Part shown: positions 5,546 to 39,382 of the stretch, one piece after another
Layout of the letters: every line of letters starts with the position of its first letter
How positions within the stretch are numbered: position 1 is the first letter of the stretch
Translations under genes and position numbers: made by a program
Virus record (IMG/VR): IMGVR_UViG_3300024219_000003
Coordinates: 1,300-65,299 of that record
Strand: one strand, 5' to 3'
Length of the DNA: 64,000 bases
From: a virus
Lineage: Duplodnaviria > Caudoviricetes
Notes under the pieces: generated by a model
Database searches by the model: none
What the model was told of the DNA's origin: nothing
What the model saw: the letters and a program-made list of their open reading frames with translations, nothing else

Positions 5546-5640
5546 TGCCCGTCACGGGGCCGCATTATGTTAACCCGAGTGATCCGCTCGATAATCGGAC
5601 GTATGGGGCACACAACCTTGTTCGACCGTGGAGGCAAGGC

Positions 5641-5886
5641 ATGACCGAGCAATCGCAACCCTTCCTCGACATGGCGGCGAGGATCGAGAAGATCGACCCG
5701 GAGGAGTTTGCCGGGGCGGTGGTCATCGTGCCGCCGGGTGGGGGGGAGCCGATTACGTTTCTGCATACCGATCCCGCTCCGGTGCTCGCGGCGTTCTGGG
5801 CGACACTGACGGGGCGTGTCGAGGTCGGGACGGCGAATGCACAGGATGCAGAGAAGTCCGGGATGCCTTGGGCGGGGCGCCGATGA
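5641..5886 (+). CDS. hypothetical protein
   Basis: GGAGG RBS; stop overlaps terminase ATG. Confidence 0.6.
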   Translation: MTEQSQPFLDMAARIEKIDPEEFAGAVVIVPPGGGEPITFLHTDPAPVLAAFWATLTGRVEVGTANAQDAEKSGMPWAGRR

Positions 5887-21201: not shown

Positions 21202-22182
21202 ATGGGCTATACCAACGTTTTCGCCAACGTCACGACGCTCCACACGCAGGATCTCGATACGACATTCAACCAGGCGGGGTTGTTGGGGACGATCCCGTGT
21301 ACGGTGGCCGGGACAAATACCCTTACGCTGACGCCGTTCAGCACGCCGGTTATCGGGACGCCGCCTCTCGTGTTGCAGGCGCAGCTCCGGGTCAGCGGGA
21401 TCGCGGCGAACTCAAACAGCGGTGCCGCGACCGCTAATGTAGCCGGGGGCGGTGCGTTAAACGTCTACAAGGACTCGGCGAGTGGCCCGGTTGCGTTGAG
21501 TGGCGGGGAGATCGTTGCCGGCAACTATTTTGCTCTGGCTTATGACGCGACCCTGAACGCGGGGGCAGGCGGATGGCATTTGGAAGGGGGTTTGGTTGGC
21601 GGTGCGCCGACCGGAGCGGCCGGCGGCGATCTCAGTGGGACATTCCCGAATCCGGCCGTGGCGAAGATCAATGGCGTGGCGCTCGGGTCTACGACAGCGA
21701 CGGCGGGGCATGCCCTTGTCGCCAGTGGAACGGCGTGGGTAGGGGTTGCGATCAGCGGGGATGCAACGCTATCTTCGGCGGGAGCGGTCACGGTCACGTC
21801 GTTGGGGGGTCGAGCTATTGTCGCGCCGACCGCATGGACGCCGACCGACAATTCGGGCGCGGCGCTCTCGTTCAGTGGGGTCAGCGCGAGCTATTCGAGG
21901 CTCGCCAACATGGTGTTCGCGGGGTTCTCGGTCACGTATCCGGCGACGGCAGATGGATCGAACGCCTCGTTCGCAGGGCTGCCGATTGCTGTCCCAAATC
22001 AGACGTATGCGCAGGGTCCGTGCTCGGTGTGGTGTAGCGGTGGCACGTTGCCGATTATCCTGCACCCAACCGCGAATACGTCCACGGCGGCGTTCTTGCG
22101 ACATGATACCGGGGCTGCGATCATCAATTCCGATCTGACCGGCCTTACGGTGCGCGGCATGCTGGTTTATCCGGTGGCATGA
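21202..22182 (+). CDS. tail fibre/structural protein
   Basis: GAAGGDLSGTFPNPAV fibre repeat; Thr/Ala/Gly-rich. Confidence 0.65.
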   Translation: MGYTNVFANVTTLHTQDLDTTFNQAGLLGTIPCTVAGTNTLTLTPFSTPVIGTPPLVLQAQLRVSGIAANSNSGAATANVAGGGALNVYKDSASGPVALSGGEIVAGNYFALAYDATLNAGAGGWHLEGGLVGGAPTGAAGGDLSGTFPNPAVAKINGVALGSTTATAGHALVASGTAWVGVAISGDATLSSAGAVTVTSLGGRAIVAPTAWTPTDNSGAALSFSGVSASYSRLANMVFAGFSVTYPATADGSNASFAGLPIAVPNQTYAQGPCSVWCSGGTLPIILHPTANTSTAAFLRHDTGAAIINSDLTGLTVRGMLVYPVA

Positions 22183-25024: not shown

Positions 25025-27412
25025 ATGTCTGACGCTCCCGCTCCCCGCAGTCCTTACGACTACATTGAGCCGCCACCGAAGGGCGGGTACATCCCGCCGC
25101 CGCCGAGTCCGTCCGATACGATGGGGATCACACCGTCGCCCAGCACCCCGGCAAAGCCACCGGCTGCGCCCGCTCCGGCGAAACCGCCCGATGAGATGAT
25201 CCCGGACCCGAATGTGGGGTTGCAGCCGATCCGGCAGGTATCGTCGGGAGGGCAGCCGGCGTTGCCCGGCCTCAATCGGGATGCTGTGCGGGACGCCATC
25301 AAGGAGGAGTGGACGAAAGCGGGATATCCCTCGGCGGCGGTTGATGGCATCGCGCGGAATGTCGAACAGGAAAGTGGGTTCAATCCCTATAATCTAGGAG
25401 ATTACAAGGACGGAAAGCCCACGTCGTTCGGTGGGTATCAGCACCACGCTGACCGTGCGAAAAAACTAGCCCTTCACCTAGAGCAAGAGCGCGCGCAAGG
25501 GGCTAATCTCAGCGATCCTGTCGAGATGGCGCGAGCGCAGACGAGGTTCTCGATCAAGGAGATGGCGGGCGCTGATCCGATAGCCGCCAAGGCGCGCGAA
25601 CATCTGATGAAGGAGACCGATCCGGGGAGTGCCTATAGCACGTTCCGGGCGGCATTTGAGCGTCCTGCGAACGGGCCTGTCCCGATGTCACTGTTGGCGC
25701 ATGATCTCCCGCCGGATGCTCGGGCTGCCTTGGAGGAGTATCACGCCGCTGGTGCGCGTGAGCGGGACACGATTACTCGGGACAAGCTCGACTTGCAACG
25801 CATGGCGCAGACCGAACCGCCGGGGTCCGCAAAGCGCCAAAAGCTCGAAGACGAGATGCACGTCAAGATCGCCGAGCGGGAGAAGGAGTGGGAGGACAAG
25901 TGGCAGCACCCGCCGATCATGAAGCCGGTGGATGCGCTTGAGAATTTCGGGTCCGTCGCGACCATCGTGTCACTGGTCGGAGGGCTGTTCGCGCGCAAGC
26001 ACATGACGGCCGCGCTCGCCGCATCGGGTGCGGCGATGCAGGCGATCAACCAGAACAACTACGACCAGTACGAGCGGAATATGAAGACGTGGGATCTTCA
26101 GACGCGCTCCGCGATGGAAATTATCAAGATGCAGCGCGAGGATCTGGCGTCGCTGTTGAAGGATGACGACCGCGCATGGGATCACAAGATGGCTTTGCTC
26201 GGGATCAAGCTCAAAGAGTACGGGATGGATCGTGAACTTGCCGCCAGCGAGCGGGGCGATATCCAGACCACTCTCAACACGATGCTGACGTTTGATCGGA
26301 CGCAGAACCAGTTGCGGAACATCGTGGGGTCAATGGCGATCAACAACCACACGCTGTTCGTGAACAACGAGCGGCAGAAGTACTATTCGGAGCACCCGGA
26401 TCAGGTGGGGCAGCCTATCCCGAATGATGTGGAATTGAAGATTCAGGGGGAGGCGAACGAGAAGTTCCCGATCCAGGGGATGCCGAAGGCTGTCGCGGAG
26501 ACTCCAGCGAAGCGGATGGATGCAGAGGTGAAGGCGGATACCCAGCGGCGGAACGATGCCTTCGATAAGGAACATCCTGACGCCACGCCAGAGGAAAAGG
26601 CTGAGGCGCATCACAAGAACGATCTTGCCTCTCGTTCTGAAATGGCTATGGCAACCGCACGCTCGGGTACTGGCAGCGTGAGCGACGAGCAGGCCAGCCT
26701 CCTCGCCGACCAATACATTCAGGGCAACTATGCGGTCATCACCGCTTTGCCGCGTAGCGGTCCGTCGCGCATCAAGGTCGAGAACATGGTGGCGGAGAAG
26801 ATGCGGGGTATGCCGGATGCCGCGCGAACGATCACGATGAACCGGTTGCGAATGGTCGAGGCGGAGTCGGCTGCTCGGACGGCGGGTCGTGTCACGATGC
26901 AGACCGAGATGTATGCGACCGAAGCGGAAGGGGCGGGGCGCGAGGTCGTCAGAACGTCGAGCCTGTTCCCGCGAACCGAGTACCCCAAGGTCAACATCGC
27001 GATCCGTGCTTTTGAGCAGAATACGGGCGACCCGCGCGTGATCCAATTTGGCGCGGCGTTGAACTCGTTGATGAACGCCTATGGCAAGATGTCGAACCCG
27101 ACCGGCACCGGCATTCACGATGCCGACAAAGAGCGGTTGGCGAATATCCTCGATACGTCCCTGTCGCAGCGGCAGATCGAGGGTGGCGTCGAGCAGATCA
27201 TCAAGGAAGGCCACATCATGTCGAATGCGGCCGAAGAGGCGCAGCGGCGGGTGCTGGGCCGGATCGCGCCGCGTGCTCCGGGGACACCGGAGGAACCGCC
27301 GAGGGGTGCGGCAGCGGCAACACCGCCCGCCCCGGCGACAAGTGGTGAGGTTATTCAGAACGGGTGGCGCTATGACGCGACGACGCACGCGCCGCTAGGT
27401 CCGGCACCATGA
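25025..27412 (+). CDS. ejection protein with phage tail lysozyme domain
   Basis: GIARNVEQESGFNP...GGYQH..DR...AFERP typical of Phage_lysozyme2. Confidence 0.75.
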   Translation: MSDAPAPRSPYDYIEPPPKGGYIPPPPSPSDTMGITPSPSTPAKPPAAPAPAKPPDEMIPDPNVGLQPIRQVSSGGQPALPGLNRDAVRDAIKEEWTKAGYPSAAVDGIARNVEQESGFNPYNLGDYKDGKPTSFGGYQHHADRAKKLALHLEQERAQGANLSDPVEMARAQTRFSIKEMAGADPIAAKAREHLMKETDPGSAYSTFRAAFERPANGPVPMSLLAHDLPPDARAALEEYHAAGARERDTITRDKLDLQRMAQTEPPGSAKRQKLEDEMHVKIAEREKEWEDKWQHPPIMKPVDALENFGSVATIVSLVGGLFARKHMTAALAASGAAMQAINQNNYDQYERNMKTWDLQTRSAMEIIKMQREDLASLLKDDDRAWDHKMALLGIKLKEYGMDRELAASERGDIQTTLNTMLTFDRTQNQLRNIVGSMAINNHTLFVNNERQKYYSEHPDQVGQPIPNDVELKIQGEANEKFPIQGMPKAVAETPAKRMDAEVKADTQRRNDAFDKEHPDATPEEKAEAHHKNDLASRSEMAMATARSGTGSVSDEQASLLADQYIQGNYAVITALPRSGPSRIKVENMVAEKMRGMPDAARTITMNRLRMVEAESAARTAGRVTMQTEMYATEAEGAGREVVRTSSLFPRTEYPKVNIAIRAFEQNTGDPRVIQFGAALNSLMNAYGKMSNPTGTGIHDADKERLANILDTSLSQRQIEGGVEQIIKEGHIMSNAAEEAQRRVLGRIAPRAPGTPEEPPRGAAAATPPAPATSGEVIQNGWRYDATTHAPLGPAP

Positions 27413-29292
27413 GCGACGCAGCCCCGTCGCCGCCTCCGTTCGATCCATCGAAGCCGTTTACTCAAGCGGGGGGTGCCACCCCGCCGCCGTTTGACCCGTC
27501 GAAACCGTTTACGACGGTTACTCCTGCTGTTCCCGTTCCAGCTAAACCGCTATCGGTTGCCGACCAAATGGCAACGTATACCCAGCGGATGCGGGAACCG
27601 AACGCTGGGGCGATCGATCTAAGCGCTGCGACCGGAATGCCGCCTGCTTTGGAGCGAAGCGCAGAAATAAGTGCTGCTCATCCCTATGAGCCTGGGATGA
27701 AAGCAGGGCAGGTGATGGGGTCGGATCGCTTGGCAGATCCGATGCTTTATGGGTTCAGCCCAGGCAACATTGGTCGTGCATCTGTCCCTCCGGGTAATCC
27801 CGCCGCGACCGCTCGACTGAAGGATTTCGAGGCACAAGGAATCACGCCAAGTGTACCTGTTGTTGGACAGGGAAGGGCGACCGGGATTGCGGCACAGGCG
27901 GGACGCATCTTGCCGTTTTCGCCGGTCCAACGCGGGATCGAACGAAATACCTTAGAGATGCAAGGGGCGACAGAACGCGCGGCTGCCGGGCTTGGAACGG
28001 CGGTTGATGAGTTTGCGGGAGGCAATGTCGCGCGTAATGCGATGACCCGCTTTGCCTCAGATAAATCGCAGGCCAAGTCTGATTACAACACGTTCTTTGG
28101 TCACATGCGCGGCGCGCCGGACGCGCCTATTCCCAACACGCTGCGGGTTCTCACCGACTTGAAGGGGCGCTTTCCGAATGCGCCGGGGCTCACCGGGATA
28201 TTCACCGCGCCGCCTATCCTCCGAATGGAGGAAGAATTGCGGCCGCGTACCGTCAGCATTCCGGGGCAAACATCGCCCGTCCTCAATCAATTCGGCCAGC
28301 CGACCACCGTAACCCCTGCGCAGACCGTCCAGAAGGGCGGGAAACTTGGGATGGACGAACTCAAAGCGATGCGATCTAGGATTGGCGAGAAGTTGGAATC
28401 GCCGACGATTGGACCGGACAGCATCCCGCGTGGTGAGCTGAAGCAGCTTTACGGTGCTCTGACCGAGGATATGCGGTCAGCCGCAGCAGCGAGGGGGCCG
28501 GCGGCGGTCAGGGCGCTTGCCAAGGCGGAGGGCAATTATAAGATCCGCATGGGTATCATTGATCGGCTTGACGCGATCACGAACAAGGACGCGCCGGAGG
28601 GGGTATTCCAAGCCCTCGACCGAGCGGCAACGACAGGTGGCGGCCAGGATTCGGGGTTACTGAGCGCGGTCAAGCGTGTTACGACCCCGGCGGAATGGAA
28701 CGATATTGGGTCGGCTGTTATCCGGCGGCTGGGCAATCCGAAACCTGGACAGCCGCGCGCGCCTGGGGAGCCAGATTTCTCGGTCGGATCGTTAGCGACG
28801 AATTGGCGGAAGTTAACGCCTCGGGCAAAGGATATGTTGTTCGGCCCTGACAAGCCCGGGACGCCGCGTGCCGGCCTGGAGGAGTTAAGTCGGGTCGCGG
28901 CCTCTTTACAAAACGTTGGTAAACTCGCCAACACGTCCCACACCGCTGAGGTGGGGGCCGCCTTTGCGATGGTCGGAGAGTTGTTTGGATCGCTTGCGGC
29001 GGGCCGCGTTCCTATTCCTGAATTGGCGGCATATGCCGGTTCCTACGGCGCATCGAAACTATTGATGAGCCCAGCATTCGCACGCTGGCTCTACAAGGCG
29101 CCGAGCCTTGTGGGCAGCACCCCGTCTCCGGCAGGGGCCAGTGCAGCGTTGGTATCTCTAGGAAATGCGTTGACGGGGGATAAGAAGCAAGGAACGAAAG
29201 ATGTTGCCGAGCAGATCATAGGCGCTCGGCACGCTCGTCCGGCAGACACGTTCGGGACTGCTAACCCTGCCGCTGTTATGGGTATCCATTAA
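27409..29292 (+). CDS. large ejection (DNA transfer) protein
   Basis: 627 aa helical protein, third in the ejection cluster. Confidence 0.6.
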   Translation: MSDAAPSPPPFDPSKPFTQAGGATPPPFDPSKPFTTVTPAVPVPAKPLSVADQMATYTQRMREPNAGAIDLSAATGMPPALERSAEISAAHPYEPGMKAGQVMGSDRLADPMLYGFSPGNIGRASVPPGNPAATARLKDFEAQGITPSVPVVGQGRATGIAAQAGRILPFSPVQRGIERNTLEMQGATERAAAGLGTAVDEFAGGNVARNAMTRFASDKSQAKSDYNTFFGHMRGAPDAPIPNTLRVLTDLKGRFPNAPGLTGIFTAPPILRMEEELRPRTVSIPGQTSPVLNQFGQPTTVTPAQTVQKGGKLGMDELKAMRSRIGEKLESPTIGPDSIPRGELKQLYGALTEDMRSAAAARGPAAVRALAKAEGNYKIRMGIIDRLDAITNKDAPEGVFQALDRAATTGGGQDSGLLSAVKRVTTPAEWNDIGSAVIRRLGNPKPGQPRAPGEPDFSVGSLATNWRKLTPRAKDMLFGPDKPGTPRAGLEELSRVAASLQNVGKLANTSHTAEVGAAFAMVGELFGSLAAGRVPIPELAAYAGSYGASKLLMSPAFARWLYKAPSLVGSTPSPAGASAALVSLGNALTGDKKQGTKDVAEQIIGARHARPADTFGTANPAAVMGIH

Positions 29293-30148: not shown

Positions 30149-32386
30149 GTGCTGAGAAAAACCCTCCTCGCGATCCTGATCGCCCTCTTCCCCGCTGTCG
30201 CGCTCGCGCAAGGGTCGGGTAATTTCACCGCCGGGCACGCGCTCCGAGCGACCGGCAATGGCGCGCAATACAGCGATGGCGGCGCGGCTACCGGGTCGGC
30301 GATATTCGGGTCAGGATACCTGACCGAACTCGGCATTACCAACACCGGCCTTCCCCTTTGCATCAACGATGCGCTCACCAATGCCACAGGCGGATATCAT
30401 CGCCTGTGCCTCGGAGCCAATTCGCTCGGTGGAGGGCTGATATCTTACGATGCGCTCGGCGGCGCATCACCTCTCCCTCTCCAATTTAGCGTCAACGGCA
30501 CCTTGTTCCCGGTCGGGTCGAGTAGTGGAGGGGGACTACCGGCTTTATGGGCGGCAGCTAATACCGCCGTCACACAGGGGCCTGGCGTTGTCGTCCAGGG
30601 GCTTAATTTCACCCGTAACAGCAGTGTCACGCAGCCGATCTACATCACTGACTTCAACCGACTGATCCTGGGCAATCCGTTCACAAGCCTGCCTTGGCTC
30701 ACAGCGCCCTGCACGCAATCAGGCTCTCTGTGTGACAACACTGCCCCGATCCTTCTTACTCATGGTGATCTGTGCTGCGGTGATCTTTACAGCTTCGGTG
30801 CAGAGACTGCTGAGGGCATCCAAGGCCAACAAATCGGAACCCGGATGGCTGGGGCACAGCCCGGCGGCCCGACGAGCATCAACGGAGGCGACATCAGCCC
30901 GCACACCGACGACATCGGTAGCGCTACGATTGAAGTCTACAACGACAGCACTGCATCCTCTGGTCCTGGCCCGCTACGGCTTGGGGGGATGACGGTTGTA
31001 GCTGGCGGTTCTGGCTATGCCGCCGGCTCGACATTCACCGTCGAGACCGGAGTCAATTGCAGCGTCAAACCAACAGGGGTCGTCTACACTATTGGGGCCG
31101 CCGGAACCGCAGTAGGAATCACGCTCAATCAAGGTCGAGGTGGGATTTGTGCGACACCAGCTGTCGGCACTCTCACCACAACCATGCTTACTGGTGGCGG
31201 CTCTGGTCTCACCGTCACAGGCACATTCGGCGCCCCTCCTTACATTGGGTCGCAGGGAAAGATCAAGCTCATTCCTTATTGTAGTGCTCCAGGCTGCCAT
31301 CAGGTAGTCGAGATTATAGGTCGAATTGCTCCAAGCACCTTGGGAGTTATCACTACGATAAACGAACTTGTAGCGAAGTTTACTCAGCCTCTACAAACAA
31401 CTGGAGCTAATACTCTAGATGTAGCCAACTCGGCAACACTGGACTACGCCAGCGGGTTTGCTAGGCTGCTCTCTGATGGCCCAGACAACACGACCAATGG
31501 GCTTTTCCAGTTGGTCAGTCAGCGAGCCAATGGATCGAATCCGTTGGTGGTCCTATCGACAGATTTGACGGGTAATGTGGCGCTGAACAGCGGTAATTTG
31601 AGCTTTCCCACGACTAATGGGGGGTTGCTCGCTCCTCTCAATGGGACGGTGTACAAGGACAATGTGACAAGTATTCAGAATAAGTCAGTGGACAACACAG
31701 GCCGATGCGGAAACTCGGCGATCAACTTTCTTGATAGCGCCGGGAATGAGCACGCCGCGTTTGGAATGACCAACACGAACAGCGCCGGATGCACGGTCTC
31801 TGGTTTTTCGCTCAATTACGCTTTCATTGAACTGAGCGATTTGAACAGTACCGGCAACAAGATGGATTTTGCGCTGCAAAACACCAATGTCCCAGCGTCG
31901 CCGTTTACCGCTTATCGGTACGACGGAACAAATAATGTCCATTTGTACAACAGCAGCGCGGGCGTAGAGAAGACGAAGATCGATGGCCAGAACGGCACGG
32001 TGACGGCACAGGGGCAGGTGAATGCGATTGGCGGGTTCTATCTGAATTCCGTTCTTCTGGTGTCCGCTGGGCCACCTGTTATTGCGAGCGGTGGATGCAC
32101 AACCGGGAGCGCGCAATCCATCTCGCAAAGCAACGGTTCAGCGGCGTTCGAGATCACCCTTGGCGGGGCTACTTGCGGTTCGACCATCACGTTGACGATG
32201 CCGGCGGCGCCACACAATTGGGTGTGCGACGCGCATAACATCACGACCCCAGCATCAAATGTCCTCGACATGACGGGCGTGGCCAGCACAACCGCCGTAG
32301 TGCTGACCAACTACGTGCGGACAACCGGCGTAGCGGGGAACTTCACCGGGGCCGACAAGTTGGCCGTGAAGTGTCTTCCGTACTAA
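30149..32386 (+). CDS. fibre/adhesin-like protein with Sec signal peptide
   Basis: MLRKTLLAILIALFPAVALA|QG; beta-rich with many paired Cys. Confidence 0.7.
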   Translation: MLRKTLLAILIALFPAVALAQGSGNFTAGHALRATGNGAQYSDGGAATGSAIFGSGYLTELGITNTGLPLCINDALTNATGGYHRLCLGANSLGGGLISYDALGGASPLPLQFSVNGTLFPVGSSSGGGLPALWAAANTAVTQGPGVVVQGLNFTRNSSVTQPIYITDFNRLILGNPFTSLPWLTAPCTQSGSLCDNTAPILLTHGDLCCGDLYSFGAETAEGIQGQQIGTRMAGAQPGGPTSINGGDISPHTDDIGSATIEVYNDSTASSGPGPLRLGGMTVVAGGSGYAAGSTFTVETGVNCSVKPTGVVYTIGAAGTAVGITLNQGRGGICATPAVGTLTTTMLTGGGSGLTVTGTFGAPPYIGSQGKIKLIPYCSAPGCHQVVEIIGRIAPSTLGVITTINELVAKFTQPLQTTGANTLDVANSATLDYASGFARLLSDGPDNTTNGLFQLVSQRANGSNPLVVLSTDLTGNVALNSGNLSFPTTNGGLLAPLNGTVYKDNVTSIQNKSVDNTGRCGNSAINFLDSAGNEHAAFGMTNTNSAGCTVSGFSLNYAFIELSDLNSTGNKMDFALQNTNVPASPFTAYRYDGTNNVHLYNSSAGVEKTKIDGQNGTVTAQGQVNAIGGFYLNSVLLVSAGPPVIASGGCTTGSAQSISQSNGSAAFEITLGGATCGSTITLTMPAAPHNWVCDAHNITTPASNVLDMTGVASTTAVVLTNYVRTTGVAGNFTGADKLAVKCLPY

Positions 32387-32399
32387 ACAGGAGGATGAC

Positions 32400-32552
32400 A
32401 TGCGCCGCATGATCGCCCTTGGGTGTCTCGCCATCCTGCTTTTCATCGGCGGGATGCGAGTACAGGCAGCCCAATCGTCATGGATATGGTGGGGAGCCAC
32501 CAACCCAATCCCCGTTTCGGCGGCCAACCCTTTGCCGGTGGCATGTCAATGA
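32400..32552 (+). CDS. 50-aa secreted peptide duplicating the N-terminus of the next protein
   Basis: MRRMIALGCLAILLFIGGMRVQA|AQSSWIWWGATNPIPVSAANPLPV; GGAGG RBS; ATGA overlap. Confidence 0.65.
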   Translation: MRRMIALGCLAILLFIGGMRVQAAQSSWIWWGATNPIPVSAANPLPVACQ

Positions 32553-34999
32553 AAAGAGTCCTCTCCATCGTTTTCGCGGTATTGCTACCTGTTGTCGGCA
32601 TCGCCAACGCGGCGCAGGAACAGTGGTTGTGGTGGGGGGCGACCAATCCGATCCCTGTAACTGCCGCCGATCCGTTGCCGGTCACGGTGAGCGGTGGCCT
32701 TACGGTGATGAAAACGGATGCATCAAACGCCACTTTACCTGACGCGCGGACTAATCTCGCGGTTCCCCATCTCAGCCCGGCATCGCCCGGCGGCGGCGTG
32801 GCGGCGTTCAGCATCCTCCCGCCGATCAAGGTGGTGAATGCTGCGGCCGGCCCGGCTGATAGCGCAGTGGGGGTCGCATCTCTCTGGGCGCGGAGCCAAT
32901 CGCCAGCAGCGCGAATAAACTTCTACACCCGGTTCAAATCGCGGGTTATCGACATTGGCGATTGGGGCGCGTGTCTCGCGGTCGATCAGGTGAAAACGAA
33001 GTTCATTTGCAACGACACCCTCGTCCCCGCCACTTACCAGGACGGAGAATGGCATAACTTCATTTTTGCATGGAACACCACGACCGGAGTTCTTCAGATC
33101 GCAGTTGACGGCGCACTCCTCGTCACCGGCCCGAACACCTCCGCCGGTGGCGCTTTTACAATTCCGATGAACGTAGCGTTGGATGCCAGCTTTGGCGTCG
33201 CCGGGTATCCTTTCGACGCCTCGGCGGCGGTCATAAACGGCTACGGCAATGCCGCTCAAGTAGACCTTGCTGAGTTCTACGTTGATTTGGCAAACACGCT
33301 CGATCTTTCTGTCGCCGCCAACATCGCGAAGTTTTATCTGGCCGGGGCGCCTGTGGCGCTCGGGGCGACCTGTGCCACCCCAACCGGGGCGCAGCCCGTC
33401 ACCTGTTTGAAGGGGCCGGCACCAACGGGCGCGACGTTCACGAATGCCGGGAGCGGCGGCAACTTCACGATCGGCGGCGGCGGCAATGGCCTGGTGGTCC
33501 CTGCGGTTGCGACGCCCGTCCGCAATCGGACAGCCGACCCGCCTCAAGACCTGCTGCTTTATTGGGACAGCTCCGACGTGAAGGAGGGCGGGAACGCGAC
33601 GATCCAGTCGCCGATCTACCCGCAAACCAACGCTTTTGTGTATCTCAGTTCCTCCGGCACGGGAGACCTCAACACCTTTACGATCACGCTGCCGAATTGC
33701 AGCAATCTGCTGAATACGCTCACCGGCATCAACGGAACGAAGGTCGCCATCACCGCCGACATGAATGTCGGCACGCTGATCGTCAACTCTCAATCTGGTG
33801 TCGTCACGAACCCGCCGACCAAGATCGTCGCGGGCAAGGCGTTCGGCTTCATCTGCTCAACCCACGCCGACAACCTGACCAAAGGCTGGTTGCCGATGGG
33901 GATGAACGGAAACCTCCAGGTTGATCCCGCCGATGCGCCCGCCGGCAACATGGTCATCAACGGGTTTTTCGACATCGACCAGCAGAACAACGGGGTCGAG
34001 ACGACGATCGGCGGCGGCGTCCGGGCGGTGGATAAGTGGCTCGGCGTCACCCCTGGCGGGCCAACGCTCAACCTGACAACGAAACAATCGACGACCAGCC
34101 CCCCGGCGGGTTATCGCCAATACCTGCACATCGCCGCAAACACCGGTGTTACTCTGTCAGCAGCACAGGCGATTGGTATACGGAATGTAATCGAGGGTAC
34201 GTATTGGAACGGTGCCGCCTATGGCACAGCATCCGCGAAACCCTTATCCTGTGGAGGATGGGCGCGGTCGAATACAATCGGCACCTATCCGTTCGCCCTA
34301 GTCAATGCTTCTGCAAATCGCAGCTACGTCACTACATGGTCGATCATCGCGGCGAATGGATGGGAGCACAAAACTATTACGATCCCGGGGGATACCACGG
34401 GGACCTGGGCCACTGGGCCAAATCAAATTGGTGGAGTGATACATTTCAACTTCGGCGCGGGGGCGAACTTCCAGACGACCGTGAATACGTGGGGTGCGGG
34501 CCTCTTTTACGACGTGTCAGCGACGACAAAACTTTCCACTGTCACCGGCGCGACGATGGACTTGGAAGCGTGGCATTGTAATTTCGGCTCGGCATTGCTT
34601 GATGAGAACCCGTTGCCGTTCGCGATGGAACTGACGCGAGCGCAGAGATATCTCGAAACTTCGATCCCGCTCGGCACAGCGATCGGCCAGAACAAGGGGG
34701 CGGCGGGTGCGGTGACGTTCCAGACGCCATACGCGCAGGCGACACTCGCGACCACGACAACCTATGTTCCCTTCCAAGTGCCGAAATTTATGAACACAGG
34801 GAACGCTCCGACGATGACCTTTTATTCGACGACCGTGGCGAGCGCGAACTGCTATAATGCGACGAGGGCGGCTGATGCTGGAGCCGGGGCGGCGGTCAAC
34901 ACATCGGATCATGGTTTTGGCCTGCAATGTACGATGGCGGCAGGTGATGCGCTCGGCGATGTCCTGCGTGTGCATTTCAAGGCAGATTCGCTGTTTTGA
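32549..34999 (+). CDS. fibre-like protein with signal peptide, LamG-like and carbohydrate-binding-like domains
   Basis: MKRVLSIVFAVLLPVVGIANA|AQ; DGEWHNFIFAWN...IAVDG; NMVINGFFDIDQ. Confidence 0.7.
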   Translation: MKRVLSIVFAVLLPVVGIANAAQEQWLWWGATNPIPVTAADPLPVTVSGGLTVMKTDASNATLPDARTNLAVPHLSPASPGGGVAAFSILPPIKVVNAAAGPADSAVGVASLWARSQSPAARINFYTRFKSRVIDIGDWGACLAVDQVKTKFICNDTLVPATYQDGEWHNFIFAWNTTTGVLQIAVDGALLVTGPNTSAGGAFTIPMNVALDASFGVAGYPFDASAAVINGYGNAAQVDLAEFYVDLANTLDLSVAANIAKFYLAGAPVALGATCATPTGAQPVTCLKGPAPTGATFTNAGSGGNFTIGGGGNGLVVPAVATPVRNRTADPPQDLLLYWDSSDVKEGGNATIQSPIYPQTNAFVYLSSSGTGDLNTFTITLPNCSNLLNTLTGINGTKVAITADMNVGTLIVNSQSGVVTNPPTKIVAGKAFGFICSTHADNLTKGWLPMGMNGNLQVDPADAPAGNMVINGFFDIDQQNNGVETTIGGGVRAVDKWLGVTPGGPTLNLTTKQSTTSPPAGYRQYLHIAANTGVTLSAAQAIGIRNVIEGTYWNGAAYGTASAKPLSCGGWARSNTIGTYPFALVNASANRSYVTTWSIIAANGWEHKTITIPGDTTGTWATGPNQIGGVIHFNFGAGANFQTTVNTWGAGLFYDVSATTKLSTVTGATMDLEAWHCNFGSALLDENPLPFAMELTRAQRYLETSIPLGTAIGQNKGAAGAVTFQTPYAQATLATTTTYVPFQVPKFMNTGNAPTMTFYSTTVASANCYNATRAADAGAGAAVNTSDHGFGLQCTMAAGDALGDVLRVHFKADSLF

Positions 35000-35018
35000 G
35001 AGGAGGAACCTTCGCGCG

Positions 35019-35534
35019 ATGAAAAAGCTCCTTCCAGCCTTTGCCGTCATCTGCCTGCTGTCTATCCCGGCGGGGGCCGTAGATCTGAGTAAGACTCCGA
35101 TCTATCCGCAGGTGCCGGTCGCGTGCGGCTCGACATGTACGCTCGGCGCGGCGAACAAGGACACTTACACCCAACTCAATCAGGCAGGCGGGTCGGTAGC
35201 GACGTTGCCGGCTGCAACCGGCACAGGCAATACCTACAAGCTATACATCAGTGTGGCGACCACGAGCGCGGCGGACAAGGTGCTGACCAACCCGATCACC
35301 GATACGATCATCGGCACGGCGCAAGGGGAGAACGCGGGCACGGCCAAGGTCTTTGTCGGTAACGCTGGGACGTTCCACTCGATCCAGATGCCCTTCGCCG
35401 GCTCGCAGCCTTCTGGCGGGTTCATCGGAGACACAATTGAATGCACCGATGTTGCTTCGGCGATCTGGAAGTGTGACATCAAGTACCAGGCGGGCACGAC
35501 CCCGACGACGCCTTACAGCACGGCGACTTCGTAG
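35019..35534 (+). CDS. secreted beta-rich structural-like protein
   Basis: MKKLLPAFAVICLLSIPAGA|VD; TLPAATGTGNTY. Confidence 0.65.
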   Translation: MKKLLPAFAVICLLSIPAGAVDLSKTPIYPQVPVACGSTCTLGAANKDTYTQLNQAGGSVATLPAATGTGNTYKLYISVATTSAADKVLTNPITDTIIGTAQGENAGTAKVFVGNAGTFHSIQMPFAGSQPSGGFIGDTIECTDVASAIWKCDIKYQAGTTPTTPYSTATS

Positions 35535-35551
35535 CGGCTGATTAGAAGGCC

Positions 35552-36172
35552 ATGCGCGCCATCGCCCCGATCGTTCTGATCGGCCTATTCGCCACTTCGA
35601 CACCGGCGGTATTGGCAGACAGTCCTGCCGGCATCCCGGTCGATGCCAAAGGCGGGCCGACAATCGACCCGACCAAGAACGTCCTGGATCTGGTCCTGGC
35701 CGCCGTGAAGCGCATCGACGATCTCATGGCGAGGGCAGACAAGCGGCAGGACGATCTTAGAGAGGCCGAGCAAAAATACCAGAATGCTATGCGCATGATG
35801 GCGGACGGTCGCTTGAACGATCTGCGCGAAGCTGATACCCGGCGGGTCAACGAGTTGAGAGAGGCTGAAACCCGGCGCCTCAATGAACTTCTGGCGCAGA
35901 AACAGGTCTTTGATCTTGAGTTGGCCCGGGTCATCCGATCGAATGTGGACTCATCCACCCTGCTCCTGGCGACCCAACTCAAAGAGGTCAAGCTGGACCT
36001 GTCCGATAGAACCGCAAAGCTCGAACAGTTCCGCTGGGAGGCTGGTGGCAAAGGAGCCGGGCAAGGGGATCTGATCAACTGGGGAATATTGATTCTCGGC
36101 ATCATCATCGGTGGGGTGGGTTTGTTCTGGCGACGCTCGCCATCAGCGGCGCCTGTGGAGGTTCCACGATGA
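35552..36172 (+). CDS. signal peptide + coiled coil + C-terminal TM protein
   Basis: MRAIAPIVLIGLFATSTPAVLA|D; WGILILGIIIGGVGLFWRR. Confidence 0.6.
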   Translation: MRAIAPIVLIGLFATSTPAVLADSPAGIPVDAKGGPTIDPTKNVLDLVLAAVKRIDDLMARADKRQDDLREAEQKYQNAMRMMADGRLNDLREADTRRVNELREAETRRLNELLAQKQVFDLELARVIRSNVDSSTLLLATQLKEVKLDLSDRTAKLEQFRWEAGGKGAGQGDLINWGILILGIIIGGVGLFWRRSPSAAPVEVPR

Positions 36173-36474: not shown

Positions 36475-36642
36475 ATGGAGCAGCGCACCATCAACGTCCG
36501 CGTCCCGGACAATCTTCTGCGGGAGTTCGATGAATGGTGCGCCCGGCAGGAGGTCACGCTGACCCGGAGTGAGGCAATCCGTCAGGCGATGACGCGCGTG
36601 ATGGCTTATTCTATACGCGTTCGGGCGGAGGCGGGGAAATGA
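36475..36642 (+). CDS. ribbon-helix-helix (CopG-like) regulator
   Basis: RTINVRVPDNLLREFDEW...TRSEAIRQAM. Confidence 0.75.
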   Translation: MEQRTINVRVPDNLLREFDEWCARQEVTLTRSEAIRQAMTRVMAYSIRVRAEAGK

Positions 36643-37439
36643 GCGACGGCCAGACCCTCATCGGGTTCGACGCGGCCCAAGATGTAACACGCATCCTTAG
36701 GATTGCGAAGGCGGCGGGAATTGCCTGGGTAGGTCGCTACTATTCATTCAATGCTAAAAAGAACCTGACCGCAGCAGAGGCGAAAGCGATCCTGGACGCT
36801 GGGCTCGACATTGTGACGGTGTGGGAAGCGCGGGGAGATAAGTGGGACTCGTTCTTTCGCGATAATGGTACACGCGAAGCTACTGCCGCGCTGGCACAGG
36901 CCAAGGAATGCGGTCAGCCATCGAACACCTGCATCTACTTTGCGGTTGATTTTGATGCCCGTTCCTCCGAAATATCGCAGAATGTAATCCCCTATTTCGA
37001 CGCCATCAACGCCGCCCTCGCTGGTCATTATAAGATCGGTGTCTACGGCAGTGGACTCGTTTGCTCGGAACTCGATTCTGCTGGGCTCGTGTCCTACGAT
37101 TGGCTTTCCGGGGCGATGGGGTGGCAAGGTTCACGAGCCTATGCCAACGCGCACCTGACCGAGATCGAACAAGGTGGCGCGGCTGACCCTTGGGGATTTG
37201 GTTTCAATGTGGACCGGAACACGGCACCTGTCGGGAGAGACTTTGGTTCATGGCTTGGTGGTAGCTTGCCATCTCCTACACCAGCGCCGCCGCGCAACGT
37301 GATCGACGAAATCCTTAGCTACGCCCGCTTCCACGATGGGGTGTACGCTTACCAGGAGAAACGTGGTCTCGCACTGGATGGCACAATCGGGAAGAACACG
37401 CTGCGGCAGATCGGAATTGATATGGCCGGGAAGAAATGA
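36639..37439 (+). CDS. endolysin (DUF1906/GH25-like with C-terminal PG-binding remnant)
   Basis: WVGRYY...KNLTAAEA...IYFAVDFD...IGVYGSG; LDGTIGKNT. Confidence 0.85.
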   Translation: MSDGQTLIGFDAAQDVTRILRIAKAAGIAWVGRYYSFNAKKNLTAAEAKAILDAGLDIVTVWEARGDKWDSFFRDNGTREATAALAQAKECGQPSNTCIYFAVDFDARSSEISQNVIPYFDAINAALAGHYKIGVYGSGLVCSELDSAGLVSYDWLSGAMGWQGSRAYANAHLTEIEQGGAADPWGFGFNVDRNTAPVGRDFGSWLGGSLPSPTPAPPRNVIDEILSYARFHDGVYAYQEKRGLALDGTIGKNTLRQIGIDMAGKK

Positions 37440-38470: not shown

Positions 38471-38688
38471 CCCTACATTCTTCGACCTTCGAGTACCTGA
38501 AGCCGACCGACGCGCAGATGGCGTTGATGGCGACGGTTCGTGGAGAGTTTGCCGCTTTCGCAAGTTCTCTCGACGCCGTGCTGCCGGACGGTCCCGACAA
38601 AACCTATCTGCTGCGACAGCTTCGAGAGTGTGCGATGTGGGCAAACATCGCGCTCACTCGCAACCCAGATGGGAGTCCGCGTACATGA
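38467..38688 (+). CDS. Acb2/Tad1-like helical-hairpin protein
   Basis: FEYLKPT...LPDGPDKTYLLRQLRECAMWANIALTR. Confidence 0.6.
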   Translation: MTLHSSTFEYLKPTDAQMALMATVRGEFAAFASSLDAVLPDGPDKTYLLRQLRECAMWANIALTRNPDGSPRT

Positions 38689-38954
38689 ACCATCTTCGCG
38701 CCGCCGCCGTCGCCATTCCGCTCGCCCTCGTCGCGTGTACGCCGCAGCAGACGGCCGCTCTCCAGCGTTACCAGGATCAAATCGCCGGGGCGTGCAGCCT
38801 CGCAATGACGCTGGCGCCGATGGCAGGGCCGGCTGGCGCATGGATCATCGGCGGTTGCGCGACGGAGACGGCCGTTGCGCGGCTTGCGCTCGATCCGTCA
38901 AGCCTCGCATGGCTGAACGGGATTGTCGCGCGACTGCGGGGCATGAACCGCTGA
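38685..38954 (+). CDS. lipoprotein (spanin candidate)
   Basis: Lipobox LVA|C after a hydrophobic stretch. Confidence 0.6.
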   Translation: MNHLRAAAVAIPLALVACTPQQTAALQRYQDQIAGACSLAMTLAPMAGPAGAWIIGGCATETAVARLALDPSSLAWLNGIVARLRGMNR

Positions 38955-39304: not shown

Positions 39305-39382
39305 GCTGGCGTAGCTCAGTTGGCTAGAGCAGTTGCCTTGTAAGCGACAGGTCGCCGGTTCGATTCCGGGCCGTCAGCACCA
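39305..39382 (+). tRNA. tRNA-Thr(UGU)
   Basis: Acceptor GCTGGCG/CGTCAGC, D arm GCTC/GAGC, anticodon loop CT-TGT-AA, TTCGATT T loop, encoded CCA. Confidence 0.92.

What the first reader, a model, noticed from the sequence alone, without database searches (positions are those of the whole stretch)
30149..36172. Fibre-like proteins in this block carry Sec signal peptides and paired cysteines
Seen: five consecutive ORFs start with basic-hydrophobic-small-residue cleavage-site leaders (AVALA|Q, RVQA|A, IANA|A, PAGA|V, AVLA|D). The 745-, 817- and 171-aa ones are beta-rich fibre/lectin-like with many spaced Cys pairs. Known: tailed virions assemble in the reducing cytoplasm and fibres normally lack signal peptides. 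Inference: receptor-binding parts are exported and oxidatively folded in the periplasm, then added at lysis; alternatively they are displayed on the infected cell. Either would be an unusual assembly route.
Basis: partly seen in the sequence, partly recalled or inferred. Interest (0 to 1): 0.7.

Follow-up and report, generated by a model that had tools for sequence, protein, structure and literature searches.

The report
Phage fibre-like proteins carrying export signals
An uncultured 65-kb short-tailed phage, like many of its metagenomic relatives, puts ordinary bacterial secretion signals and fully paired cysteines on its tail-fibre-like proteins. These host-recognition-type parts therefore almost certainly fold in the periplasm and not in the cytoplasm where tailed phage particles are built; where they end up is still open.

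Summary
Five consecutive + strand ORFs (745 aa; a 49-aa stub; 816/818 aa; 171 aa; 206 aa) begin with canonical Sec/signal-peptidase-I type leaders. No other ORF of 100 aa or more on that strand does.

The leaders are conserved as a feature in three independent families:
- 745 family: 33 aligned homologues, with A at -3 in 27, A at -1 in 29 and Q at +1 in 31. Leader identity is 0.29 against 0.62 for the domain behind it.
- 816 family: 9 clusters.
- 171 family: at least 105 of 119.

Mature cysteine counts are even in 32/33 and 96/97. In the 171 family, the five complete leaderless homologues have lost the cysteine pairs that 104 of 105 leader-bearing ones keep.

The proteins are receptor-binding-protein-like. 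They have a conserved N-terminal module and swapped C-termini, which include a tail-fibre domain of cultured podophages, pectate-lyase helices and S74 chaperone domains. Export and disulfide folding is therefore well supported (about 0.85).

Whether they join the virion at lysis (about 0.35-0.4), act free or on the envelope, or are displayed on the cell is untested. The phage also has a leaderless fibre. This scan has noted the same pattern on other phage DNA before. I found no published description of it for tailed-phage fibres.

The parts
30149..32386 (+). 745-aa exported fibre/RBP-like protein. It has a leader (residues 1-20), a conserved beta-rich N-terminal module (about 21-120, invariant Cys71/Cys87), a variable body, and a C-terminal beta-sandwich (about 640-745).
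   Evidence: 41 homologues share only the first ~120 residues; leader rules met in 33/33 aligned. (C-terminal 124 aa are 81% identical to a leader-bearing protein of an unrelated phage contig, L001). (AF2 domains; beta-sandwich, Z up to 6.7). (16 Cys).
32400..32549 (+). 49-aa ORF: a leader plus the first ~25 residues of the N-terminal motif of the next gene. Its TGA overlaps the ATG at 32549 (ATGA overlap).
   Evidence: AGGAGG site; stop-start overlap. (P0055 is a 50-aa homologue elsewhere, with an identical mature part and a diverged leader). (55% identity to the start of the 816-aa protein, E 6e-13).
32549..34999 (+). 816-aa exported fibre-like protein (818 aa if started at 32543). It has a leader, a short conserved Trp-rich N-terminal motif and a lectin-like middle part. 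The C-terminal half is homologous to tail fibres of cultured podophages.
   Evidence: 9 clusters share leader plus motif; C-termini differ. (residues ~450-816 match annotated tail fibres of Synechococcus, Prochlorococcus, Methylophilales and Pelagibacter phages, E down to 3e-24). (S74 chaperone domain in three family members). (10 Cys).
35019..35534 (+). 171-aa exported protein: a leader plus a ~140-aa 'tip' domain with two cysteine pairs.
   Evidence: 300 homologues; at least 105 of the 119 listed are leader-bearing; 104 of those keep all four Cys. (leaderless homologues sit in head or neck modules and lack the Cys).
35552..36172 (+). 206-aa protein with a leader, a periplasmic coiled coil and a C-terminal membrane helix. 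It has no Cys and is not fibre-like. The role is unknown: lysis-related or an inner-membrane dock.
   Evidence: Atlas structural neighbour is a 201-aa viral cluster, TM 0.52; no family name.
21202..22182 (+). Leaderless 326-aa tail-fibre-like protein directly after the nozzle-like 779-aa gene. It is a context part and shows that the particle has a cytoplasmic fibre.
   Evidence: sequence with a common tail-fibre motif; 3 Cys. (N-terminal 127 aa conserved, C-terminus swapped in L002; 65% identical over its full length in L004).
25025..29292 (+). Two large cysteine-free internal virion / DNA-transfer-like proteins (795 and 627 aa) that precede the exported block (context).
   Evidence: Phage_lysozyme2; phrog_770 weak; 0 Cys; same order in related contigs.
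36639..37439 (+). Endolysin (Rv2525c-like glycoside hydrolase domain). It marks the start of the lysis genes after the block (context).
38685..38954 (+). 89-aa lipoprotein-type ORF (lipobox with Cys). It is a candidate outer-membrane spanin and indicates a diderm host (context).
   Evidence: sequence; no family hit.

Best explanation
The block encodes a late-expressed set of modular tail-fibre / receptor-binding-type proteins. These are translocated by the host Sec system, cut by signal peptidase I, and folded with disulfide bonds in the periplasm of a diderm host.

They cannot return to the cytoplasm. I therefore infer that they meet the DNA-filled, cytoplasmically built particle only after the holin opens the inner membrane. 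In the seconds before the outer membrane fails, they would dock through their conserved N-terminal modules: the ~100-residue module of the 745-aa protein and the short Trp-rich motif of the 816-aa protein. They would then serve as additional, disulfide-stabilised fibres beside the leaderless 326-aa fibre.

How firmly each step stands:
- Shown by comparative sequence evidence: leaders under selection as leaders; cysteines paired; RBP-type domains and modularity; position in the fibre slot.
- Inferred from established Sec/SPase I/Dsb biology: export, cleavage and oxidation (about 0.85).
- Pure inference: docking to the virion at lysis.

The confidence given here is for the whole chain.
For: Leaders.
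- 745 family: 33 aligned homologues all have 18-23-aa leaders, with A at -3 in 27, A/G/S at -1 in 33 and Q at +1 in 31. Leader identity is 0.29 against 0.62 for the domain behind it.
- 816 family: 9 clusters carry a leader plus the motif.
- 171 family: at least 105 of 119 carry a leader.

Disulfides.
- Mature Cys counts are even in 32/33 and 96/97.
- Across eleven phage stretches (the window plus loci L001-L010), 25 of 27 leader-bearing ORFs have an even count. Leaderless ORFs split 31 even to 60 odd (Fisher 6e-9).
- The five complete leaderless homologues of the 171-aa domain have replaced the cysteines that 104/105 leader-bearing ones keep.
- The cultured leaderless homologue S-SBP1 gp44 has 3 Cys.

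Fibre nature.
- The C-terminal half of the 816-aa protein matches annotated tail fibres of cultured podophages.
- Family members end in Peptidase_S74 chaperone domains or carry pectate-lyase helices.
- The architecture is a conserved N-module with swapped C-termini.
- L001 shares an 81% identical C-terminal domain with the 745-aa protein but has a different N-module, and it is a different phage type. N-modules therefore follow the phage and C-domains follow the host, as in virion RBPs.
- Several alternative conserved N-modules are joined to the same tip domain.

Position.
- The block lies between the ejection proteins and the lysis genes, the fibre slot of T7-like gene order.
- The same layout, with 1-8 leader genes, occurs in eight related IMG/VR contigs and in low-GC phages L018-L020.
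- In L001 and L006 the leader genes lie between tail genes.
- No promoter or terminator signal above chance separates the block from its neighbours.
Against: - No experiment and no trained signal-peptide predictor was available.
- I found no published tailed phage whose fibres are exported.
- The phage has a leaderless fibre-like protein right after the nozzle gene, so the particle does not need the exported proteins to have a fibre.
- The N-modules match no known virion anchor family in Pfam or PHROGs. The Atlas neighbours (Mtd_N, T4_gp9_10_N clusters, scores 0.82-0.84) are only leads.
- Parity counts within one family are not independent observations.
- Later checks of similar reports in this scan rated the virion-attachment reading at about 10 in 100.
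Confidence: 0.38

Rival explanations
1. The proteins are exported and disulfide-bonded as above, but never become part of the particle. They would act as free or envelope-directed glycan-binding or depolymerising proteins. In the periplasm they could bind or cut nascent surface polysaccharide, giving receptor masking or destruction, superinfection exclusion and less trapping of progeny on debris. After lysis they could be released as stable soluble 'public-good' lectins or depolymerases that open the matrix for the progeny.
For: - A leaderless fibre exists for the particle itself.
- Family members carry pectate-lyase-type helices typical of depolymerases.
- The block abuts the lysis genes.
- Disulfides suit extracellular stability.
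- There is no detectable similarity to known virion anchor domains.
- Published Porphyromonas phages encode exported proteins of unknown function that are thought to modify the host envelope (PMC10367356).
Against: - A free enzyme needs no conserved N-terminal docking module, yet several such modules are conserved and shuffled with common C-domains.
- The N-module follows phage type, not the shared C-terminal (host-side) domain.
- Up to eight such genes (about 10 kb) per genome is a large investment for a non-structural function.
- The exported proteins are not copies of the phage's own leaderless fibre, so a simple decoy of its receptor-binding domain is not supported.
Confidence: 0.35
2. After Sec export the proteins are taken across the outer membrane and displayed on the infected cell. 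The conserved N-terminal module would anchor them to a surface element, as proposed for Bdellovibrio MAT fibres. This could stick infected cells to fresh hosts or block receptors in cis.
For: The architecture is the same as in the 21 Bdellovibrio MAT fibres: a signal peptide, a conserved ~130-aa beta-rich N-domain, then a variable trimeric fibre with or without an S74 domain (PMC10769870). The 816 family includes S74-ending members.
Against: - No outer-membrane secretion signal or secretion gene was found in the block.
- The pattern scan of one genome for each of 185,579 species found no cellular homologue of the N-module, so it is phage-specific rather than matched to a host surface system.
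- These are late genes next to the lysis genes, which leaves little time for display.
Confidence: 0.1
3. The hydrophobic N-termini are not cleaved export signals. They would be uncleaved membrane anchors or structural helices, and the proteins would stay on the cytoplasmic side.
For: No trained predictor or experiment was available. A single hydrophobic helix can act as a signal anchor.
Against: - Small residues at -3 and -1 are conserved in 33 of 33 aligned homologues, with a near-invariant residue at +1.
- Leader sequence drifts while leader length and hydrophobicity are kept.
- Cysteine counts are even, and cysteines are lost exactly in the leaderless homologues. None of this is expected for cytoplasmic proteins.
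Confidence: 0.05

Closest known systems
Bdellovibrio bacteriovorus mosaic adhesive trimer (MAT) fibres (Caulton et al. 2024, PMC10769870)
   Same: Signal peptide, then a conserved beta-rich N-terminal domain of about 100-130 residues, then a variable phage-like fibre. Some members end in an S74 chaperone/protease domain, and the tips are swapped between members.
   Different: MATs are encoded by a bacterium and shown on its own surface. Here the genes sit in the late operon of a lytic-type phage genome. The N-module was not found by the pattern scan of one genome for each of 185,579 species. Homology between the two N-domains was not tested, because no full MAT sequence was on hand.
Podophage tail fibres with a conserved N-terminal anchor and variable C-terminal receptor-binding domain (T7 gp17 type; cyanopodovirus S-SBP1 gp44 and relatives)
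   Same: The gene position after the internal virion proteins is the same, and so is the modular N-conserved / C-variable build. The C-terminal half of the 816-aa protein is homologous to these annotated fibres.
   Different: The cultured fibres have no leader and an odd number of cysteines. The proteins here have cleavable-type leaders and paired cysteines, and their N-modules match no known anchor family.
Exported proteins of Porphyromonas gingivalis phages obeying the Bacteroidetes Q-rule (Matrishin et al. 2023, PMC10367356; Bochtler et al. 2018, PMC5837995)
   Same: Both are phage-encoded Sec/SPase I substrates with Gln at +1. In the 745 family 31 of 33 have Q at +1.
   Different: In those phages the proteins are of unknown function and are not described as fibre-like. 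Here the host is unknown, GC is 0.60, and about a quarter to a half of genes have a Shine-Dalgarno site. The Bacteroidota O-glycosylation sequon is not enriched, and the 171 family has Q at +1 in only 29 of 97.
Filamentous phage g3p (established knowledge, from memory)
   Same: A phage receptor-binding protein made with a Sec signal peptide and folded with disulfides in the periplasm.
   Different: Inoviruses assemble by extrusion at the membrane. This is a terminase-packaged, HK97-type tailed phage.

Membership tests
Sec / signal peptidase I (type I) signal peptides | Positively charged n-region, 8-15 residue uncharged hydrophobic core, total length about 18-25 | tested here: met
   All five window ORFs. 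33 of 33 aligned homologues of the 745-aa protein have 18-23 residue leaders with K/R near the start.
Sec / signal peptidase I (type I) signal peptides | Small neutral residues at -3 and -1 (A-x-A rule) | tested here: met
   In the 745 family, -3 is A in 27/33 and -1 is A in 29, G in 3 and S in 1. All five window leaders end in A at -1.
Sec / signal peptidase I (type I) signal peptides | Conserved as a feature while the sequence drifts | tested here: met
   Pairwise identity is 0.29 in the leader against 0.62 in the following domain. The stub and its homologue P0055 have an identical mature part and diverged leaders.
Sec / signal peptidase I (type I) signal peptides | Positive call by a trained predictor; cleavage shown experimentally | not testable with these tools
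   No SignalP or proteomics was available.
Periplasmic disulfide-bonded proteins | Cysteines paired (even number) and lost when the protein is cytoplasmic | tested here: met
   Even counts in 32/33, 96/97 and 25 of 27. Five complete leaderless homologues of the 171-aa domain lack the pairs. Family members are related, so the counts are not fully independent.
Phage tail fibre / receptor-binding protein | Homology to tail fibres of cultured phages | tested here: met
   The C-terminal half of the 816-aa protein matches annotated tail fibres (context). For the 745-aa protein only a generic beta-sandwich match was found.
Phage tail fibre / receptor-binding protein | Conserved N-terminal module with exchanged C-terminal domains; S74 chaperone or beta-helix in family members | tested here: met
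Phage tail fibre / receptor-binding protein | N-terminal anchor of a known virion-attachment family | tested here: inconclusive
   No Pfam or PHROG hit. Atlas feature neighbours include Mtd_N and T4_gp9_10_N clusters at 0.82-0.84, below the level that means anything.
Phage tail fibre / receptor-binding protein | Physically present on the virion | not testable with these tools
Bdellovibrio MAT fibres | Signal peptide + conserved beta-rich N-domain + variable fibre | tested here: met
   The architecture is as described in PMC10769870 and as seen.
Bdellovibrio MAT fibres | Encoded by the cell and homologous in the N-domain | tested here: inconclusive
   The pattern scan of genome contigs found no cellular relative of the N-module. 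That scan sees only fairly close relatives, and no MAT sequence was compared.
Spanins (for the 206-aa protein) | i-spanin: N-terminal uncleaved membrane helix. u-spanin: N-terminal lipobox plus C-terminal helix. | tested here: not met
   The leader ends in a cleavage-type site with no lipobox Cys, and the membrane helix is C-terminal. There are no family hits.
Bacteroidetes Q-rule substrates | Gln at +1 in most exported proteins of the system; Bacteroidota host traits | tested here: inconclusive
   Q at +1 in 31/33 of the 745 family and in about 60% of unrelated leader proteins in related contigs. It is present in only 29/97 of the 171 family and in one of the five window leaders. The O-glycosylation sequon is not enriched. 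The host is unknown.

The most novel reading that the evidence does not exclude
In this phage lineage, and in other lineages with the same layout, part of the virion's host-recognition apparatus is built outside the cytoplasm. The fibres are secreted by Sec, trimmed, disulfide-locked in the periplasm, and snapped onto finished particles only in the interval between holin triggering and outer-membrane rupture. That would be a two-compartment assembly pathway for a tailed phage.
Probability: 0.33. Interest if true: 0.9.

Novelty: new variant of a known kind. Interest (0 to 1): 0.66.

Why it matters
Textbook assembly of tailed phages is wholly cytoplasmic. If fibres routinely mature in the periplasm, three things follow:
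- Host Sec, signal peptidase and Dsb functions become host factors for phage infectivity.
- Annotation rules that treat 'signal peptide' as evidence against 'virion protein' are wrong for whole lineages.
- Disulfide-locked receptor-binding proteins become available as unusually stable binders or depolymerases.

Even if the proteins never join the particle, a widespread class of exported RBP-like late proteins would be a new player in superinfection exclusion or matrix degradation.

The within-family contrast (leader plus cysteine pairs against no leader and no cysteines) gives a simple rule, computable from sequence alone, for finding such proteins in viromes.

Tried and rejected
- The look-up of sequencing runs: none was listed and no RNA holder was listed.

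Host inference failed:
- The genome-contig scans with the N-module alignment and with the phage epimerase gave no confirmed relative.
- The capsid and portal match only two uncultured spring-water phages.
- There is no DNA match in the phage collection.

Structure gave little:
- The AF2 model of the 818-aa form failed (pLDDT 35).
- The 745-aa model is usable only for the N-domain and the last ~105 residues. Its fold search gave only generic beta-sandwich matches, with Z at most 6.7.
- PDB sequence searches gave nothing useful: a weak pentraxin-like stretch at E 0.005.

Ideas tested without support:
- Bacteroidota host idea: the O-glycosylation sequon D-S/T-hydrophobic is not enriched in any block protein.
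- N-x-S/T sequons are about twice the expected number in the 745- and 816-aa proteins (P 0.003 and 0.011) but not in pooled homologues (385 observed, 389 expected). I do not build on this.
- 'Decoy copy of the phage's own fibre': there is no similarity between the leaderless 326-aa fibre and the exported proteins.
- Own promoter or terminator (moron-like cassette): no signal above shuffled expectation.
- Literature searches for exported tail fibres of tailed phages found no description.


Full report
WHAT IS THERE

The window is bases 1300-65299 of a single 65,299-bp contig with the gene content of a short-tailed phage:
- a large terminase interrupted by a LAGLIDADG intein;
- a major head protein;
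- three adaptor-like paralogues, one with a weak SU10-adaptor match;
- a 779-aa nozzle-like protein with Ig-like repeats;
- a leaderless 326-aa tail-fibre-like protein;
- three large internal virion / DNA-transfer-like proteins, one with a tail lysozyme domain;
- the block in question;
- an endolysin and small membrane proteins.

The block holds five consecutive + strand ORFs with signal-peptide-like N-termini:
- 30149-32386 (745 aa);
- 32400-32549 (49 aa);
- 32549-34999 (816 aa; 818 aa from 32543);
- 35019-35534 (171 aa);
- 35552-36172 (206 aa).

Gaps between them are 13-19 nt or overlaps, and 42 nt lies upstream of the first. A consensus scan finds no promoter or terminator above shuffled expectation. 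A rule-based leader test flags these ORFs and no other + strand ORF of 100 aa or more in the window.

ARE THE LEADERS REAL?

No trained predictor was available, so I used comparative evidence.

The 745-aa protein has 41 database homologues that share only its first ~120 residues. In an alignment of 33 of them:
- every one has an 18-23-residue leader with K/R near the start;
- position -3 is Ala in 27;
- position -1 is Ala in 29, Gly in 3 and Ser in 1;
- position +1 is Gln in 31;
- mean pairwise identity is 0.29 in the leader and 0.62 in the 100 residues behind it.

That is the pattern of a segment selected for its physical properties and its cleavage site, not for its sequence.

A full HMMER search with the first 110 residues of the 818-aa form found nine further clusters. 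They have the same build: a leader, a short Trp-rich motif, then unrelated C-termini.

The 171-aa protein has 300 homologues. Of the 119 listed, at least 105 carry a leader.

ARE THEY OXIDISED?

Three lines of evidence agree.

1. Mature cysteine counts are even in 32 of 33 members of the 745 family, although the counts range from 6 to 24 in unrelated C-termini. They are even in 96 of 97 leader-bearing members of the 171 family.

2. Across the window and ten related or unrelated phage loci, 25 of 27 leader-bearing ORFs have an even non-zero count. The two exceptions are short and doubtful ORFs. Leaderless ORFs of the same strands split 31 even, 60 odd and 37 without cysteine (Fisher 6e-9). The big internal virion proteins have no cysteine in any of these phages.

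3. The 171-aa domain offers a natural experiment. 104 of 105 leader-bearing members keep all four cysteines. The five complete leaderless members have replaced them. These five sit on contigs of 1.8-38 kb (four of them 19-38 kb) and have ordinary fibre-like N-termini. In IMG/VR loci the leaderless, cysteine-poor versions sit in head or neck modules (L017, L023, L025-L027). The leader-bearing versions sit in blocks of exported proteins (L014, L018-L020, L022).

The eight remaining 'leaderless but four-cysteine' entries start inside a repeat or come from contigs of about 1-3 kb, and look like truncated gene calls.

The cultured homologue of the 816-aa C-domain (S-SBP1 gp44) has no leader and three cysteines.

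One caveat applies: members of one family are related, so the parity numbers overstate independence. The agreement of three unrelated families with the loss pattern is the real argument.

ARE THEY FIBRE-LIKE?

- Residues ~450-816 of the 816-aa protein match annotated tail fibres of cultured Synechococcus, Prochlorococcus, Methylophilales and Pelagibacter podophages (E down to 3e-24). In S-SBP1 the match lies in a run of tail-fibre genes.
- Three members of its family end in a Peptidase_S74 chaperone domain above Pfam's threshold.
- Members of the 745 family, and the neighbour of its relative in L001, carry pectate-lyase-type beta-helices or hit tail-spike PHROGs.
- The last 124 residues of the 745-aa protein are 81% identical to the end of a leader-bearing 349-aa protein in L001. 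L001 is a 35.6-kb contig of another phage type, and there the gene lies between a tail protein and a virion-associated enzyme. Its N-terminal part is different.

So C-terminal domains travel between phage types while N-modules stay with the phage type, as in classical receptor-binding proteins.

The 206-aa protein is different. It has a leader, a coiled coil, a C-terminal membrane helix and no cysteine. Its only neighbour is an unnamed viral cluster.

LINEAGE

The pattern scan found no relative of the N-module of the 745-aa protein in genome contigs, which holds one genome for each of 185,579 prokaryote species. It is present in eight IMG/VR contigs of 25-64 kb. In these, one to eight leader-bearing, cysteine-rich genes follow the cysteine-free ejection proteins. 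Low-GC phages (L018-L020, GC 0.43) show the same order: ejection proteins, a small membrane protein, four leader genes, then lysis genes. No cultured relative exists in the phage collection, and the host is unknown.

HOW IT MOST LIKELY WORKS

By established Sec/SPase I/Dsb biology, proteins with these leaders are translocated unfolded, cleaved and oxidised in the periplasm of a diderm host. A lipobox ORF at 38685 fits a diderm host. I put this core at about 0.85.

What happens next is inference. Four observations make docking to a phage-made structure attractive:
- the conserved N-modules;
- the shuffling of those modules with common tips;
- the fibre-slot position;
- the large coding investment.

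The only time such docking could occur is after the holin has opened the inner membrane and before or just after the outer membrane fails.

Three points count against it. The phage has a leaderless fibre. The N-modules match no known anchor. No tailed phage is known to do this.

My estimates are:
- virion attachment, about 0.35-0.4;
- a free or envelope-acting exported lectin or depolymerase role, about 0.35;
- surface display in the manner of Bdellovibrio MAT fibres, about 0.1. Those fibres have the same signal peptide / conserved N-domain / variable fibre build (PMC10769870);
- non-export, about 0.05.

COMPARISON AND NOVELTY

The nearest items in print that I found are these:
- exported proteins of unknown function in Porphyromonas phages that obey the Bacteroidetes Q-rule (PMC10367356; PMC10653852 and PMC5837995);
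- the cell-encoded MAT fibres.

Neither describes exported tail-fibre-like proteins of a tailed phage.

The near-invariant Gln at +1 in the 745 family recalls the Q-rule. It is not general here: 29 of 97 in the 171 family, and one of five in the window. The Bacteroidota O-glycosylation sequon is not enriched. I therefore draw no host conclusion.

This scan has reported the same kind of pattern on other phage DNA several times. Later checks there kept the observation but rated the virion-attachment reading low.

What this report adds is the leader / cysteine-pair co-variation within one domain family, and the parity statistics over independent C-termini.

LIMITS

There is no SignalP, no proteomics and no usable model of the 816-aa protein. 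The context of most homologues is unknown.

Noticed in passing
window 32400-32549 (+): A 49-aa ORF repeats the leader and the first ~25 mature residues of the next gene. It has the strongest ribosome site in the block, and its TGA overlaps the ATG at 32549 (ATGA). A 50-aa homologue elsewhere (P0055) has an identical mature part but a diverged leader, so the stub looks selected and not a dead relic. It could be a secreted docking-motif peptide, or a translational coupler for the 816-aa gene, which has no ribosome site of its own.
   Followed up: partly
window 5628-8825 (+): The 1065-aa large terminase carries a LAGLIDADG / Hom_end homing-endonuclease domain at residues ~775-841, i.e. a probable intein inside terL.
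   Followed up: no
window 21202-22182 (+): A leaderless 326-aa protein with a common tail-fibre motif sits directly after the nozzle-like gene. Its N-terminal 127 residues are conserved in L002, while its C-terminal part is swapped. A 56-residue piece of it recurs inside the leader-bearing 682-aa protein of L002.
   Followed up: partly
window 35552-36172 (+): A 206-aa protein has a cleavable-type leader, a long coiled coil and a C-terminal membrane helix followed by Arg-Arg. This is the mirror image of an i-spanin topology, and it lies next to the lysis genes. It has no family name. A 201-aa viral cluster is its structural neighbour (TM 0.52).
   Followed up: partly
window 38685-38954 (+): An 89-aa ORF has a lipoprotein-type signal (lipobox with Cys) about 1.2 kb downstream of the endolysin. 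It is a candidate outer-membrane spanin.
   Followed up: no
window 30149-34999 (+): N-x-S/T sequons occur at about twice the shuffled expectation in the 745-aa protein (19 against 9.9, P 0.003) and the 816-aa protein (15 against 8.5, P 0.011). No other virion protein tested shows this. Pooled homologues show no excess.
   Followed up: partly
homologues of window 30149-30508; loci L002-L009: Gln follows the predicted cleavage site in 31 of 33 members of the 745 family and in roughly 60% of unrelated leader-bearing proteins of related contigs. This resembles the Bacteroidetes Q-rule, although GC is 0.60, Shine-Dalgarno sites are used and no O-glycosylation sequon excess is seen.
   Followed up: partly
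loci L017, L023, L025, L026, L027: Leaderless, cysteine-free versions of the 171-aa tip domain lie in head or neck gene modules of other phage types: between portal and scaffold, or before the sheath-like gene. They may be head or neck fibres.
   Followed up: partly
window 25025-29292 and the matching genes in L002-L009, L018-L019: The large internal virion / ejection proteins contain no cysteine at all in any of these phages. That is several thousand residues without one.
   Followed up: no
window 39305-39382 (+): tRNA-Thr (TGT) lies just after the lysis region.
   Followed up: no
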